Assembly (NCBI RefSeq): GCF_004010195.1
Contig: NC_057751.1
Coordinates: 13,664,267-13,728,266, forward strand
DNA: 64,000 nt
Direction: 5' to 3'
Origin: Chiloscyllium plagiosum
Taxonomy: Eukaryota
Shown here one piece after another: positions 1,458 through 42,052 of this stretch (the stretch's first letter is position 1; every line of letters starts with the position of its first letter). Both the position numbers and the translations under genes were made by a program. The notes under the pieces are model-generated. The model saw only the letters and a program-made list of their open reading frames with translations, did no database searches and was not told where the DNA came from.

Positions 1458-1790
1458 TAGTTAAAAATCACACCACACCAGGTTATAGTCTAACAGGTTT
1501 ATTTGGAGGTACAAGCTTTGGGAGCGTTGCTCCTTCATCAGGTAGCTAGTGGGGCAGGATCATAAGACACAGAATTTATACTAAAAGGTCATAGTTTCAT
1601 ACATCTGATGCAATGTATTGATTGCTGTTAAGTCTTTAATCGCTTAGAATGGGGATGCAGGTTTTGATTGATAATATGTAAATTTCAGAAGTTCTTTCAA
1701 GCCACAGTTCTGAGATATCAAGATTTTTTTTAAAAAAAAGTAATATCTCAGCTCAGAAAATGCATTAAAGATGTGGGGTTAGAATCTATT
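1458..1790 (-). mobile_element. Penelope-type 3'/pLTR fragment (family C)
   Basis: Shares AAAAATCACAC...CCAGGTTATAGTC.AACAGG...GCTCCTTCATCAG with copies at ~7650, ~34070 and ~41725; contains a hammerhead-like CTGATGA-AGGAGC motif on the minus strand. Confidence 0.6.
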
Positions 1791-4346: not shown

Positions 4347-5007
4347 GTTTGAGAAGATTTGTAGCTCGGGTACTCATTGTTGTGGTTCTGTTCGCCGAGC
4401 TGGGAATTTGTGTTGCAGACGTTTTGTCCCCTGTCTAGGTGACATCCTCAGTGCTTGGGAGCCTCCTGTGAAGCGCTTCTGTGATCTTTCCTCCACCATT
4501 TATAGTGGTTTGAATCTGCCGCTTCCGGTGGTCAGTTCCAGCTGTCCGTTGCAGTGGTCGGTATATTGGGTCCAGGTCCATGTGCTTATTGATAGAATCT
4601 GTGGATGAATGCCATGTCTCTAGGAATTCTCTGGCTGTTCTCTGTTTGGCTTGTCCTATAATAGTAGTGTTGTCCCAGTCGAATTTGACAAGCAACATGA
4701 ATTCGACTGGGACAACACTACTATTATAGGACAAGCCAAACAGAGAACAGCCAGGGAATTCCGAGAGGCATGGCACTCATCCACAGATTCAATCAATAAG
4801 CACATCGACCTGGACCCAATATACCGACCACTGCAACGGACAGCTGTAACTGACAACCGGAAGCGGCAGATTCAAACCACTACAAATGCCGGAGGAAAGA
4901 TCACAGAAGCGCTTCACAGGAGGCTCCCAAGCACTGAGGATGTCACCTAGACAGTGGACGAAACGTCTGCAACACAAATTCTCAGCTCGGCAAACAGAAC
5001 CACAACA
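4347..5007. mobile_element. Inverted (palindromic) pair of Penelope 3' ends, Poseidon-like GIY-YIG tail plus pLTR
   Basis: About 310-bp inverted arms (4378-4685 and 4699-5007). Both translate to FDWDNTTIIGQAKQRTAREFxExWHS...DLDPIY, the C-terminus of a PLE GIY-YIG endonuclease. Hammerhead motif in each arm. Confidence 0.9.
4931..4970 (+). ncRNA. Minimal type I hammerhead ribozyme motif (Penelope pLTR)
   Basis: GCA-CTGAGGA-T-GTCACCT AGAC AGTGGAC-GAAAC-GTC-TGC: core CUGANGA/GAAA, stem II GTC..GAC, stem I GCA/TGC, GUC cleavage triplet. Confidence 0.7.
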
Positions 5008-8120: not shown

Positions 8121-8325
8121 CTGGAAATGTGTTGCTGGAAAAGCGCAGCAGGTCAGGCAGCATCCAGGGAACAGGAGAATCGACGTTTCGGGCATAAGCC
8201 CTGAAGGAGGGCTTATGCCCGAAAAGTCGATTCTCCTGTTCCCTGGATGCTGCCTGACCTGCTGCGCTTTTCCAGCAACACATTTCCAGCCCTGATCTCC
8301 AGCATCTGCAGACCTCACTTTCTCC
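8121..8325. mobile_element. Palindromic Penelope pLTR mini-element (family B) with 15-bp TSD
   Basis: 82-bp inverted arms (8121-8202 and 8208-8289) with 1 mismatch; flanking repeats TCATCAGTACATACA (8106-8120) and TCATCAGTATGTACA (8326-8340). Confidence 0.9.
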
Positions 8326-15917: not shown

Positions 15918-16045
15918 ATTCCTGATGAAGGGCTCCAGCCCGAAACGTCGATTGTTTGCTCCTCGGATGCTGCCTGACCTACTGTGATTTTCCAGCAATA
16001 CACACTCAACTCTGATCTCTAGCATCTGCAGACCTCACTGTCTCC
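15918..16045 (+). mobile_element. Solo Penelope pLTR (family B) with intact hammerhead motif and 9-bp TSD, inserted in an old CR1
   Basis: CTGATGA-A-GGGCTCCAGCCC-GAAACGTC at 15922-15949; TSD CAGTCTTGG at 15909-15917 and 16046-16054. Confidence 0.85.
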
Positions 16046-27345: not shown

Positions 27346-27517
27346 CAGTAATGGTATTCACAACAGTACGGAGAATGGTAGGGGGTCTGATCAGCTCCTT
27401 TAAAATATTAGACTCAGTTGCCAATGGGAAGCCATTGTCCAACATCTCTTCCAACACCTCATATACAACCACAACATTGTCTTTGATTGCCACCTCTGAA
27501 CAGGTTCCAAAATAATC
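27346..27517 (-). CDS. AP3M2: AP3M2 coding exon 2: DYFGTCSEVAIKDNVVVVYEVLEEMLDNGFPLATESNILKELIRPPTILRTVVNTITG
   Basis: TTTCTATCTAG acceptor, GTATGT donor, 172 nt. Confidence 0.97.
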
Positions 27518-33865: not shown

Positions 33866-34502
33866 CCAAAAAGGAAGAACAATAGAAAGAGAAATGAAGT
33901 AAAGAAAGAAATGAGAGAGAGCAAAATTAGAGAAAAGAGGAGAGAGGGGAGATGGAAAGAAGCTGGGAGTTGGAATCAAGTTCAAGGGTGATGGCTTATT
34001 ATATCTGGGAGGTGTCAAGATAACAGAGGAGGTGGAAGTGCCAGTGTTGCACTGCAGTGGACACAGTCAAAAATCACACAAAACCACCTTATAGGCCAAC
34101 AGGATTAGTTGAAACCACAAGCTTTCAAAGTCCCCCTCCTTCCTCAGATGGCTAGTGAGTGAGAATACATCAGACGCAGAATTTATAGTAAAAGATCAAA
34201 GGATCATACAACTGATGCAAATGTATTGAACAAACCTATATGGCCATCAATCAGTTAGAACAGAGGTGCAGGTTTTGATGGATTAGTACGTAAATCCCAG
34301 AATTTCTTTCAATTTACTGCCCCAAGATAACATCAGGTTTTATCAGAATAAACTGTGACACCTCAGGTCAAACAATGCATTTTAGGTCTGAGGCCTTGTT
34401 TTGAGGTAAAAACAATGACTGCAGATGCTGGAAACCAGATTGTGGATTAGTGGTGCTGGAAGAGCACAGCAATTCAGGCAGCATCCGAGGACAGGCAAAA
34501 TC

Positions 34503-34530
34503 GACGTTTCGGGCAAAAGCCCTTCATCAG
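34503..34530 (-). ncRNA. Minimal hammerhead ribozyme motif, copy 1 (sense to AP3M2)
   Basis: CTGATGA-A-GGGC TTTT GCCC-GAAAC-GTC. Confidence 0.65.
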
Positions 34531-34782
34531 GAATAAAGGCAGAGAGCCTGAAGCATGGAGAGATAAGCTAGAGGAGGGTGGGGGTGGGGAGAGAGTAGCA
34601 TAGAGTTCTTGTAGAGAGAAGAGGAAAACTTCTTCAAGGCAGGCATCCTTGCAAGAGGATTCGCAGTAGGGTTAAAATCAACGAGGTAAAAACAATGACT
34701 GCAGATGCTGGAAACCAGATTCTGGATCAGTGGTGCTGGAAGAGCACAGCAATTCAGGCAGCATCCGAGGACAGGCAAAATC

Positions 34783-34810
34783 GACGTTTCGGGCAAAAGC
34801 CCTTCATCAG
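34783..34810 (-). ncRNA. Minimal hammerhead ribozyme motif, copy 2 (identical, sense to AP3M2)
   Basis: CTGATGA-A-GGGC TTTT GCCC-GAAAC-GTC. Confidence 0.65.
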
Positions 34811-34813
34811 GAA

Positions 34814-34947
34814 GTGTCAGGGAGTTCTGCATTATTGGAGGTGCCAGGCAGTACTGCATTATTGGCGGTGTCAGGGAGTGCGACATTATTGGACATGTCA
34901 GGGAATGCTGCATTATTGAAGGTGTCAGGGAGTGCTGCATTATTGGA
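34814..34947. repeat. 27-bp minisatellite, ~5 copies (GTGTCAGGGAGTGCTGCATTATTGGAG)
   Basis: Directly visible tandem units. Confidence 0.9.
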
Positions 34948-37903
34948 TTCCTGCGGTGGCAGGGGAAAGTGCCAGGATGGGAGGGTGGGTCGTGGACCTG
35001 ACCAGGTAGTCACGGAGGGGACGGTCTTTGCGGAAGGCGGAGAGGGGTGGGAGGGAAATATATCCCTGGTGGTGGGGTCTGTTTGGAGGTGGCGGAAATG
35101 TCGGCGGATGATTTGGTTTATGCGAAGGTTGGTAGGGTGGAAGGTGAGCACCAGGGGCGTTCTGTCCTTGTTGCGGTTGGAGGGGTTGGGTCTGAGGGCG
35201 GAGGTGCGGGATGTGGATGAGATGCGTTGGAGGGCATCTTTAACCACGTGGGAAGGGAAATTGCGGTCTCTAAAGAAGGAGGCCATCTGGTGTGTTCTAT
35301 GGTGGAACCGCTCCTCCTGGGAGCAGATACGGCGGAGGCGGAGGAATTGAGAATACGGGATGGCATTTTTGCAAGGGTGATGGTTTATTATATCTGGGAG
35401 GTGTCATGATAACAGAGGAGGTGGAAGTGCCAGTGTTGCACTGCAGTGGACACAGTCAAAAATCACACAAAACCAGGTAGAGGTAGGGTGGGAAGAGGTG
35501 TAATCCTTGTTTTGAGTCTGTTTGTGTCTCAACCTGGCGTCAGACTGGCTTTATTTCCAAAGTAGGAATTGATGAAAAGCCACATGGACTGACTGCCTAC
35601 AGACCGTGTGTTTTTTGAACAAAATAGAATGTATCTGCAAATGCAAATTCACCCCATAGATTTATATACGTGTGCTTGTGTCAGGTAGTGTGTGTGCGCG
35701 CACGTGCGCGTGTCAGGTAGTGTGTGAGAAAGGGAGCATGAGTGTGTCTGAACTTGTTAACTGACTGGTTATAAATCAGGAGTGAAGCTCTCCAACAATA
35801 TTCTCATAAATCTGCAGCATCAGGCTAATGTGCATAGTCAACATTTTATTCCTGTTAGTTACCCTAATCCATCAAAGTTCATAAAGATCAATTGCCAAGG
35901 GAATAAGGAATCCCTCTTTTATAATCTTCATGCAATTTCAATTGCTTGATATATTCAGAAGAACAAAGAGAGTAGTTATGAAAAAATTGCAATTCTTAGG
36001 AGAGTTCAGGAACAGAGAAGCCAAGTGTGATGGGTGCACAGAATTGGTGAAGGTAACAGAAAAGATATAAAAAGTAATTTCGAAAGGTGGGATTCTGAGT
36101 TTCCCCATGTACAGAAGCAGACTACAGGAGTCAGGAAGTTAGGATGAACCTTTATGAAACACTGATTTGGCCTCAATGGAAGGATTGTGTCCAATTCTAA
36201 ACACTGCATTTTAAAAAGAATGCAGAAAAGATTTAAAGTAGAGGATCCAGGGATTAGGAATTTTGTGGGTAGACTGGAGAAGCTGAGGTTATCATCTTTG
36301 GAAATTTTGAAAGATGTTCAAAATCATGACAGGGTCTACAGGAAGCCACCAAAGAAGAACTGATCCTTTTAGTGGAAGGATCAATTGCCTGGTGACAGAA
36401 ATATCAATCTAACTGACAAAGTACCAACAGCAAGCTGAGAAAAGATGTTTCACTTACCTATTAAAAAAAGACAGTGACTGATTAGTACTTGAAATGCACT
36501 GCCTAAGCATATGGTAGAGATATATTCAATTGTGGTTGTGAAAAGGGCAATGAGTCACCAGAGTAGAAACAATTTTTATGGCTATGTGGAAAAGGCAGGA
36601 GTGTGACTGAGCTGAGCTGTTTTTGTAGATAGCAGAACAAGGACCATCTCGATATCTCTTGAAGAAGAACTATCACTATCTCACCATGCCATAAAAATTT
36701 GTTCATTCCTCAAATTTGGAGTTTGAGATTTAGTCAGGGGAATAGCAACAGGTGGGATAAATAACTTACAATTATCTTGGGGCAGGAATGGGGCAATGAT
36801 CTGATGACAGTCTCTTCCCCAAATAGATTTGGTGAATGGACATGTGCATATACAGTGGTTAGAAAACACAAGCTGTGAAAATGCAGACTCAAATAATTGA
36901 CTCTACTTCAAACCGATGAAATTCCAACGGGAACTCCATTAACATGGCCACAGTAGAGCTGGAGCACTCTGACAACTGTCTTCTTTCGAACTCTGGTAGC
37001 AGTACAAAACCGATACCAGCCATTAACATTGTTCCATTCCACTCAATGCATCACTTTGTTTTTCAACCTGGCCATCAAACTGCAAAAGGTATTGTCCACG
37101 TAAATTCTATTTGCGGCTCGTTAACAACAGAGTTTCTTCAGTAAAGTACTGTTATTATTTCAGCTGACGTATGCTATAATTACTGGATAAGTTCAGACTT
37201 TTGACTGGACTCTTGCTTGACTGATCATATTTGTCTGTTTTGGTTTTCACAAAGTAGTCTTTCACTGAACATAAGCAAGCAATGTTGTGGATTTGCTGTG
37301 TTAAGAAAGTTTCAGTGCGGTAAGATACTTCACACAGTTGTTTTAAAATGTGAGGTAATGAGAAAGAAGGAGAGAAATCAACTCCTAAATTTAGCTTCCC
37401 TACTTCATCTGGAAGCATGAATTGTAGCACATGATCGTGTACGTGTTTGCAGAAGTCAACACATGATGAACCAGATCATAGCAGGACACAATGACTCTTA
37501 TGTTAACCCACTGAAGCAACTCAGGCCTGTGTGTCACAGACTGGGTCATGCACTTGACAATAATTAAAGATGTCAAGATTCCTATTTGTGCCGTAGCTGT
37601 GAGATCTATAGTGAAATAGAATCAGCCATTGTCTTGAACTTAACAAGACAGATGGTTTTGTACTCTACTCCTTAATCATTCGGGGAGCATTTGAGACCAT
37701 AATGTGCTTCTATAGATTTTTCTTTTGCCTCTTCTGATATAAGAAAAACCAGGAACTTGCAGTGACTGTAGCATTCTGTCAACTTGTTTGCAGCGTTCTC
37801 TTTTGCCAATTGAAGGGATTGGAATCAAGTTGACCTCGTCAACGGCAAAGTGTTTGATTGGGGCTGTTAACCTGGACCAATCAAGAAATCCTTGGCTGAC
37901 CAG

Positions 37904-38320
37904 TATAACCAGGAGACACCTGTACACACACAATATGGGGGGGAGGGGGGTTAGAAAATATGCAGGAGATTTTAAAAAGGGGAAAAAAATAACCAAACAA
38001 ATAATAAAATAAACAGGAGGTTTAGAATCTCCTCAGTTTAGGGCACTGACTCTGTGCTGGCTGGTGCTACAGTCAGTGTGTTCCTGCTGTTGAAGAGGGG
38101 GAGAGTCTCTTTGTCTTTTTGCTCCCCCACCCCCTTTGTTTAGGGAAGATATTTGTTTTTTTGGGAGTTTCTGTGTTGTTTGTTTGTATTTTTTAAAGAA
38201 AAGATATATAACCAGGAGAGGAAAAAAATATAAAACAGGAGATTTAGAATCTCCTCAGAGAAAAAAAAATAACCAGGAGATGAGAATCTCCTTAGGTGAG
38301 GACTGACTCTGGGCTAGTGC
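37904..38320 (+). repeat. Cluster of A-tract + ACCAGGAGATTTAGAATCTCCTCAG hairpin motifs (unclassified)
   Basis: Complete or partial copies at ~37904, 37961, 38010, 38208, 38231 and 38270, plus an outlier at ~38745. Confidence 0.75.
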
Positions 38321-41164: not shown

Positions 41165-41437
41165 CTGAAACGTGTCAACCACCCGATGGAGAAACTCGAT
41201 GACAAACAGCGGCGGCACCTCACTCTGGATCACAGCCACGAAGAAGATGCGATCCCGGTAGACGCTGATTAAGAAATGATGCGGAGTCGGGATGACGGGG
41301 GGCACATTCTCCGACTCGCTCGCCTTCTCTTGCGCCTCGAAGAAGTAATCGCAAACCGACCGGCTCACCACACTCTTCCAGTGCTTCTCCAGGAAGATGT
41401 CCCCAGAGGAGTTGATGAGGAACAAGCTGTGGATCAT
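41165..41437 (-). CDS. AP3M2: AP3M2 coding exon 1: MIHSLFLINSSGDIFLEKHWKSVVSRSVCDYFFEAQ...FVIEFLHRVVDTFQ
   Basis: ATG at 41437-41435, GTCAGT donor at 41164, 273 nt, CpG-rich. Confidence 0.97.
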
Positions 41438-41696: not shown

Positions 41697-42052
41697 TGTG
41701 GAGGAGCCGGTGTTGGACTGGGGTGGACCAAGTTAAAAATCACACAACATCAGGTTATAGTCCAACAGGTTCATTTGGGAGCACTAAGCTTTTTTCGGAG
41801 CGCTGCTCCTTTATCAGATGGCTGTGGAATACAAGATCCTGTTTTGATTAGATTCCCTACAGGATGGAAACAGGCCCTTCGGTCCAACAAGTCCACACTG
41901 ACCCTCCGAAGAGTAACCCACCCAGACCCATTCCCCTGTATTTACTCCTGACGAATGCACCGAACACTACTTGATGAAGGAGCAGCGCTCCGAAAGCGAG
42001 TTCTTTCAATTAAATCTGTTGGACTATTACCTGGTGTTGTGTGATTTTTAAC
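41697..42052. mobile_element. Palindromic Penelope pLTR (family C) with a SINE 3' fragment in its centre, abutting the AP3M2 promoter
   Basis: Inverted arms GTTAAAAATCACACAAC...GGAGCGCTGCTCCTT / TGATGAAGGAGCAGCGCTCCGAAAGC...GTGTGATTTTTAAC; HE1 3' end at ~41845-41970 (-). Confidence 0.75.

What the first reader, a model, noticed from the sequence alone, without database searches (positions are those of the whole stretch)
34403..34813. Two identical, intact, sense-strand hammerheads 280 nt apart in AP3M2 intron 1: candidate dimeric self-cleaving module in a host pre-mRNA
Seen in sequence: tandem pLTRs each carry CUGAUGA-A-GGGC-UUUU-GCCC-GAAAC-GUC on the minus (AP3M2 sense) strand, with a self-complementary ACGU at stem III. 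Established: minimal Penelope-associated type I hammerheads cleave poorly as monomers but can cleave as dimers through this palindromic stem III. Inference: this tandem arrangement could form an intramolecular dimer, cut the AP3M2 pre-mRNA after GUC (near 34503 and 34783) and release a ~280-nt RNA that could circularise. Most other hammerhead copies in AP3M2 introns are antisense or degenerate. Stem I pairing looks weak, so activity is uncertain.
Basis: partly seen in the sequence, partly recalled or inferred. Interest (0 to 1): 0.75.

Follow-up and report, generated by a model that had tools for sequence, protein, structure and literature searches.

The report
Young Penelope insertion with tandem hammerheads
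The two identical hammerhead motifs are real and lie on the gene's sense strand, but they are end-repeats of one young copy of a very abundant jumping gene (about 18,000 identical motifs in this genome) and likely neither release a circle nor affect the host gene, although sister copies likely record the ribozyme cutting the element's own RNA.

Summary
Observation confirmed: identical minimal hammerhead cores at 34810-34783 and 34530-34503 (minus, sense to an AP-3 mu gene), 280 nt apart. They end a 1.1-kb mosaic Neptune-type Penelope insertion with a 12-bp target duplication. The exact core occurs 18,175 times genome-wide; 44 of 82 sampled junction copies have a short tandem unit, though two intact cores are uncommon (1 of 66 unmasked). 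Release of the 280-nt RNA is unlikely: the 5' hammerhead lost part of stem I to a captured satellite, the dimer fold is predicted about 13 kcal/mol uphill with no help from the spacer, and 8 of 9 Xenopus dimers of this kind did not cleave in a 2026 preprint. A slow intronic cut would probably not stop splicing. RNA data gave no test. Side result: copy 5' breaks pile up exactly at the scissile bond (465, versus 3-13 at five neighbouring positions and 124 at +6), suggesting the family's RNA is cut in vivo. The scan noted such pairs, and this hint, earlier on other DNA. Verdict: new member of a known kind, interest 0.2.

The parts
34783..34810 (-). hammerhead core A (5' copy); predicted cut after 34783; upstream stem I strand partly replaced by satellite
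34503..34530 (-). hammerhead core B (3' copy); predicted cut after 34503; native upstream strand
34683..34813 (-). pLTR copy A, starting 3 nt before the core
34607..34682 (-). 5' start of the element (first codons of the Penelope ORF, MPALKKFSSSLYK)
   Evidence: maps to the ORF start of near-full-length copy L114
34534..34606 (-). 3' end of the element, joined to the ORF start at about 34606 (internal deletion of about 2.7 kb)
34403..34533 (-). pLTR copy B, 3' end of the insertion
34503..34782 (-). 280-nt unit between the two predicted cut sites
34814..34947 (-). five units of a 27-bp satellite whose long arrays lie on small unplaced contigs
34948..35375 (-). Penelope ORF fragment, from the end of the RT region to the start of the Cys-rich linker
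   Evidence: 95-99% to the 39 other scored places; sister copies carry RVT_1 and GIY-YIG
35372..35475 (-). 104-bp copy (98%) of target-flank DNA at 33983-34086, inserted into the ORF fragment
   Evidence: other copies skip about 105 nt here (table 5)
35480..35504 (-). short 5'-most ORF fragment
35505..35516 (-). target-site duplication, upstream copy (12 bp)
34394..34405 (-). target-site duplication, downstream copy (12 bp, first 3 nt shared with the element end)
41165..41437 (-). host gene: first coding exon of AP-3 mu (likely AP3M2)
27346..27517 (-). host gene: next coding exon (3' boundary approximate)

Best explanation
The pair is the 3' end of one young, broken Penelope-like (Neptune-type) retroelement insertion, likely built by several template switches of the element's reverse transcriptase, and in the host pre-mRNA it likely stays mostly uncut and is likely removed with the intron. 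Shown: a 12-bp target duplication brackets a mosaic of ORF piece, captured flank, ORF piece, satellite, pLTR A, ORF start, element 3' end and pLTR B. Inferred: cDNA began at the element's 3' end, jumped after about 200 nt to the 5' start of another element RNA (making the 280-nt unit and the second hammerhead), read through that uncut hammerhead into satellite RNA, then jumped again. Inferred: the ribozyme's role is to trim the 5' end of the element's own RNA in the germline, probably with help from the element's protein. Predicted: at this locus at most a slow cut at 34783, after which the 5' piece is held by only about 6 base pairs, so the second cut and a 280-nt circle would be rare.
For: 18,175 exact cores; 4,555 exact copies across the cut site of this subfamily; 597 exact pLTR-to-ORF-start junctions, of which 44 of 82 sampled have another core within 450 nt and 1 of 82 a 3-kb unit. 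Units of 246-384 nt with varied junctions at unlinked loci. RT and GIY-YIG in sister copies with a Cys-rich linker (Neptune trait per PMC3846280 passage). Stem I: native C-G, U-A, U.U, A-U; copy A only C-G, U-A (duplex -0.9 versus +0.7 kcal/mol). Dimer stem III probability about 1e-5, cleavable folds 12-14 kcal/mol uphill in three of four contexts and 10-12 in the shortest; 13.1 versus median 13.2 for 30 spacer shuffles. A second insertion (G000:C1:21853243, own target duplication) was copied through the same uncut satellite-hammerhead junction. Literature: min-HHR dimers cleave poorly (PMC4209133); the anole PLE hammerhead needs the protein (PMC11167929); 8 of 9 Xenopus dimers did not cleave at 6 mM Mg (bioRxiv 10.64898/2026.07.22.740005); hammerhead-cut introns still splice (PMC2995048 passages, citing Dye 2006 and Fong 2009).
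Against: Two intact cores in tandem are uncommon: 1 of 66 unmasked sampled junctions (16 of 82 masked), 8 distinct places among 29 best-hit loci. The folding penalty here is among the lowest of 8 sister tandems (12.6-43.7), and the model lacks tertiary contacts and any positive control. The family's ribozyme appears to cut in vivo, and the unit includes the ORF start, which in the anole element binds the protein. One of nine Xenopus dimers cleaved strongly.
Confidence: 0.85

Rival explanations
1. Active intronic retrozyme: the two cores dimerise in the pre-mRNA or excised intron, helped by Penelope protein in the germline, releasing a 280-nt RNA that circularises and can be re-inserted. Little or no effect on the mRNA.
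For: Both cores exact; the dimer is nested; penalty lowest-tier among sisters; 5'-break peak at the scissile bond; repeated identical units in some arrays (248,248 and 274,274); meets the 'active retrozyme' sequence definition of the 2026 preprint.
Against: The cut at 34503 relies on a 2-bp stem I; this unit's junction was not seen in any other of the 35 distinct units listed, so no amplification of this exact unit is evident; the C1 sister has a different junction and an uncut copy A.
Confidence: 0.1
2. Host-relevant module: cutting lowers or regulates AP3M2 expression.
For: Sense orientation; retrozyme-like repeats are mildly depleted from introns in Xenopus.
Against: Young mosaic insertion; about 43% of such repeats are intronic in Xenopus anyway; slow hammerhead cuts do not block splicing; one contig of a related species stops matching exactly at the target duplication (suggestive only).
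Confidence: 0.03
3. Family level: the 5'-break peak at the cut site reflects a transcription start, an RT pause or one inherited duplication rather than ribozyme cleavage.
For: 69 of the first 100 hits are one 17-nt duplication type, which slippage between two GAT words or inheritance could give; another G-start position (+6) is also raised (124); no RNA ends were found at the site in the anole element (PMC11167929).
Against: Without the duplication and its CpG-decay form, 20 of 100 hits remain (about 330 after scaling, versus 17-72 at -8, -4, -2, -1, +2); partners at the break are varied (flank, inversions); duplication carriers span at least three haplotypes.
Confidence: 0.35

Closest known systems
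Minimal hammerheads (min-HHR) in pLTRs of metazoan Penelope-like elements (Cervera and De la Pena 2014, PMC4209133; parts 1-2 of 4 read)
   Same: Type I core, extra base between 9 and 10.1, G10.1-C11.1 pair, palindromic 15.2-16.2 with no stem III of its own, location in the pLTR, thousands of copies.
   Different: Stem II 4 bp (7-8 in their Schistosoma families); stem I only 3 pairs plus U.U (4-5 bp there), and 2 pairs for copy A.
Non-LTR retrozymes as non-autonomous PLE derivatives (Li, Clavereau, Pollet, bioRxiv 10.64898/2026.07.22.740005; parts 1-3 of 5 read, supplements not seen)
   Same: Short tandem unit with a hammerhead in each repeat, derived from a pLTR; reported in one cartilaginous fish (mean 363 bp); about 43% intronic in Xenopus.
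   Different: Only 1.5 units here, embedded in a mosaic insertion; the unit is an internally deleted element (5' start joined to 3' end), with evidence for template switching rather than local expansion.
Metazoan non-LTR retrozymes expressed as circRNA (Cervera and De la Pena 2020, PMC7229834; parts 2-4 of 6 read)
   Same: Size class 170-400 nt, type I hammerheads, dimer model (axolotl).
   Different: Those carry canonical hammerheads with loop-loop contacts and shown circles; here the motif is minimal and no circle is shown.
Poseidon element of Anolis (Frangieh et al. 2024, PMC11167929; parts 1-2 of 4 read)
   Same: pLTR hammerhead near the ORF start; uncut RNA used as template.
   Different: Different clade; they found no RNA ends at the cut site, whereas genomic copies here break there preferentially.

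Membership tests
min-HHR of PLE pLTRs | CUGANGA and GAAA boxes around a stem II closed by G10.1-C11.1, NUH cut triplet | tested here: met
   stem II probability 0.89-0.99
min-HHR of PLE pLTRs | palindrome allowing a dimeric stem III | tested here: met
   ACGU/ACGU duplex -1.7 kcal/mol
min-HHR of PLE pLTRs | stem I of 4-5 bp | tested here: inconclusive
   3 pairs plus U.U for the cut at 34783; 2 pairs for the cut at 34503
min-HHR of PLE pLTRs | self-cleavage | not testable with these tools
   indirect, family level only: 5'-break peak at the bond
Penelope-like element, Neptune group | RT followed by GIY-YIG in one ORF | tested here: met
   sister copies: RVT_1 E 7.8e-9 and 2e-6, GIY-YIG E 4e-5; this copy holds only a fragment with no Pfam hit of its own
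Penelope-like element, Neptune group | Cys-rich domain between RT and endonuclease | tested here: met
   no phylogeny built
Penelope-like element, Neptune group | pLTRs in partial tandem, target-site duplication | tested here: met
Non-LTR retrozyme | tandem unit of 150-450 nt with a type I hammerhead in consecutive repeats | tested here: met
   280-nt unit, two cores
Non-LTR retrozyme | this unit spreads as its own family | tested here: inconclusive
   its junction is unique among 35 listed units, while 281-, 274- and 248-nt types recur at unlinked loci (best hits only)
Non-LTR retrozyme | expressed as monomeric linear and circular RNA | not testable with these tools
   available RNA runs gave no locus-specific cover
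Domesticated intronic ribozyme | conserved at the orthologous position across species | tested here: inconclusive
   one contig of organism B leaves the match at the target duplication edge; the 10 other letters were not shown

The most novel reading that the evidence does not exclude
This intron holds a working, protein-assisted mini-retrozyme: Penelope protein bound at the ORF start folds the two minimal hammerheads, cuts a 280-nt RNA out of the AP3M2 intron, and intron RNA from this locus serves as template for new insertions (the C1 copy sharing the satellite junction would be a daughter). A weaker, family-level version, that these minimal hammerheads cut the element RNA in vivo as recorded by copy 5' ends, is about 0.6 likely and would deserve about 0.4.
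Probability: 0.08. Interest if true: 0.55.

Novelty: new member of a known kind. Interest (0 to 1): 0.2.

Why it matters
As a locus it is one of probably tens of intact short tandem pairs from this subfamily and matters little. If it did cut, it would be a natural case of a retroelement ribozyme excising a small RNA from a housekeeping gene's intron. The family-level pile of 5' breaks at the scissile bond matters more: the 2014 paper says in vivo evidence was lacking and the 2024 anole paper found no RNA ends there, so genomic junction counts would offer a way to test whether minimal PLE hammerheads cut in vivo. Two full-text searches listed no paper whose title or abstract start reports this for sharks; those papers were not read in full for it.

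Tried and rejected
Rfam: no hit, expected for minimal motifs. RNA: no RNA holder listed. Laying two poly(A) single-cell runs and two guessed-RNA contig sets was no test: X21 523 reads from about 2% of the run, 98% running on into other loci, no depth over the locus-specific satellite, one end pile at 34810 and none at 34783 or 34503; X22 nothing laid. Presence in other individuals: contigs of X3 and X4 match the satellite-hammerhead junction but with only 26 letters on one side, and the X1 contig has under 31 on one side, so they are hints only. My first 5'-end mapping was confounded by subfamily variants and masked stretches and was replaced by whole-genome pattern counts. The idea that the TCG class was a one-base insertion at a ligation junction was rejected: it is a 17-nt duplication. 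The idea that the C1 copy is a plain daughter was weakened: its internal junction differs, so a third, unassembled source in a satellite array is at least as likely. Orientation bias of tandem pairs in introns could not be measured (no annotation). No genome-wide count of tandem pairs was obtained; estimates come from samples. No known active dimer was folded as a positive control. A search for Neptune linker papers found none; a sequence look-up of earlier findings found none.

Full report
Observation. A descriptor scan of the window finds four candidates: these two, an antisense variant at 15922 and a weak 3-bp-stem match at 4934. The host gene is an AP-3 mu subunit on the minus strand; the pair lies mid-way in the 13.6-kb intron after the first coding exon. 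The AP3M2 label is recalled, not tested. The genome is 3.56 Gb and its repeats look shark-like (recalled).

Anatomy. From 5' to 3' it holds a 25-nt ORF piece, a 104-bp copy of DNA lying about 320 bp downstream of the site (98%), a 428-nt ORF piece, five units of a 27-bp satellite (arrays on unplaced contigs), pLTR A, about 75 nt of the ORF start, about 70 nt of the element's 3' end, and pLTR B. Mapping on a near-full-length 2,981-nt unit (L114) shows that the 280-nt unit is an element with almost all of its ORF missing. Sister copies carry RT and GIY-YIG domains with a Cys-rich linker, a Neptune trait (PMC3846280 passage). I infer repeated template switching during one insertion.

Base rates. 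The exact core occurs 18,175 times and the subfamily sequence across the cut site 4,555 times. The 411-nt module gave 1,536 candidates, of which 40 were scored, many matching end to end at 87-99%, with arrays of 2-5 cores. The pLTR-to-ORF-start junction occurs 597 times. I fetched 80 regions around 82 of the first 100 listed hits (the three C1 hits already held and the last 15 of the list were left out). 44 of 82 have another core within 450 nt. Both cores are intact in only 1 of 66 unmasked cases, 16 being masked upstream; 9 of the 13 with a recognisable upstream core and an intact downstream core carry A9G upstream. Among 29 best-hit loci, 8 distinct places have two or more intact cores in tandem. 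So intact pairs number in the tens for this subfamily: uncommon, not unique.

Could this pair cut? In a dimer each active site uses the core and upstream stem I strand of one copy and the cut site of the other. The cut at 34783 uses copy B's native strand (C-G, U-A, U.U, A-U). The cut at 34503 uses copy A's strand, where satellite DNA leaves two pairs. Releasing 280 nt needs both. Folding gives stem II readily but dimer stem III at about 1e-5 and cleavable folds 10-14 kcal/mol uphill; the real spacer does no better than 30 shuffles (13.1; 12 shuffles lower). Against my reading: eight sister tandems score 12.6-43.7, so this pair is among the least disfavoured, and the model has no tertiary or protein term. 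Published assays point to weak activity: low cleavage of min-HHR dimers and trimers (PMC4209133), none without protein for the anole element (PMC11167929), 1 of 9 Xenopus dimers active (bioRxiv 10.64898/2026.07.22.740005; supplements not seen). Introns cut by a hammerhead still spliced in vivo, unlike those cut by a fast HDV ribozyme (PMC2995048 passages reporting earlier work).

A sister insertion. The satellite-hammerhead junction occurs exactly twice in the assembly. The other copy (C1, L008) has its own target duplication and a 5' inversion, and reads through core A into 27 nt of satellite, so an RNA with this junction was copied uncut. Its internal junction differs from ours; either both drew on a third, unassembled source in a satellite array or C1 is a recombinant daughter of this intron. 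Not resolved.

Does the family ribozyme work? Following a lead from an earlier scan note (e1-8850334), I counted copies whose three upstream bases are all non-native at set positions relative to the scissile bond: -8: 13, -4: 7 (39), -2: 3 (44), -1: 13 (66), 0: 465 (38), +2: 12 (65), +6: 124 (40; 45 of the first 100 are palindromic fold-backs, hand count). At 0, 69 of the first 100 are the TCG class, a 17-nt duplication in most of the 30 inspected, and 11 are TCA; the other 20 are flank or inversion junctions where inspected. Scaled for pattern stringency this gives about 330 at 0 against 17-72 at five neighbours and about 190 at +6 (rough). The simplest reading is that many templates end at the cut, and the duplication is RT reaching that end and re-priming 17 nt downstream on an uncut RNA. 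A start site or RT pause is not excluded. This concerns the element's own RNA, not the host intron.

Reads. DNA contigs of a related species stop matching at 34405, the target duplication edge, and resume at 35517, which hints at an empty site; the intervening letters were not shown. RNA runs gave no locus-specific test.

Verdict. A new member of a known kind: min-HHR pLTRs of a Neptune-type element in a retrozyme-like short tandem, a class described in 2014, 2020 and 2026, including intronic copies and a cartilaginous fish. The scan recorded several such intronic pairs earlier in this and other genomes. Interest 0.2.

Noticed in passing
G000 genome-wide; L157-L186: Copy 5' breaks peak exactly at the hammerhead scissile bond; roughly 320 copies carry a 17-nt duplication starting there, in several haplotypes.
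   Followed up: partly
L007, L011, L016, L017, L019, L025, L028, L030: Recurrent internally deleted units of 281, 274 and 248 nt at unlinked loci, and many different junctions that all give 280-282 nt, as if native 3' ends switch in register onto a 281-nt mini-element RNA.
   Followed up: partly
L088, L110, L111, L116, L131, L141, L145, L149, L150: The upstream hammerhead of tandem units often has A9G; either a founder effect or selection for templates that cannot be cut.
   Followed up: no
window 35372-35475 and 33983-34086: The insertion captured 104 bp of target DNA from about 320 bp downstream of its own site, in the same orientation.
   Followed up: partly
window 34534 (loose ends): Many copies begin 1-4 nt before the core, at the start of the short stem I strand, suggesting a second preferred RNA 5' end there.
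   Followed up: no
G000:C1:21853243 (L008): Second insertion sharing the satellite-hammerhead junction, with 5' inversion and a target duplication of about 13-16 bp.
   Followed up: partly
window 37679-38032 (-): 118-codon open frame inside the same intron with no Pfam hit; nature unknown.
   Followed up: partly
window 1510-1541 (-), 34123-34147 (-), 41970-42002 (+): Degenerate copies of a second hammerhead-like repeat family with an AGCU palindrome; the young insertion landed inside older repeat DNA.
   Followed up: no
window 4378-5007 and 8121-8289: Long near-perfect inverted repeats (308 nt and 82 nt arms) from head-to-head Penelope ends.
   Followed up: no
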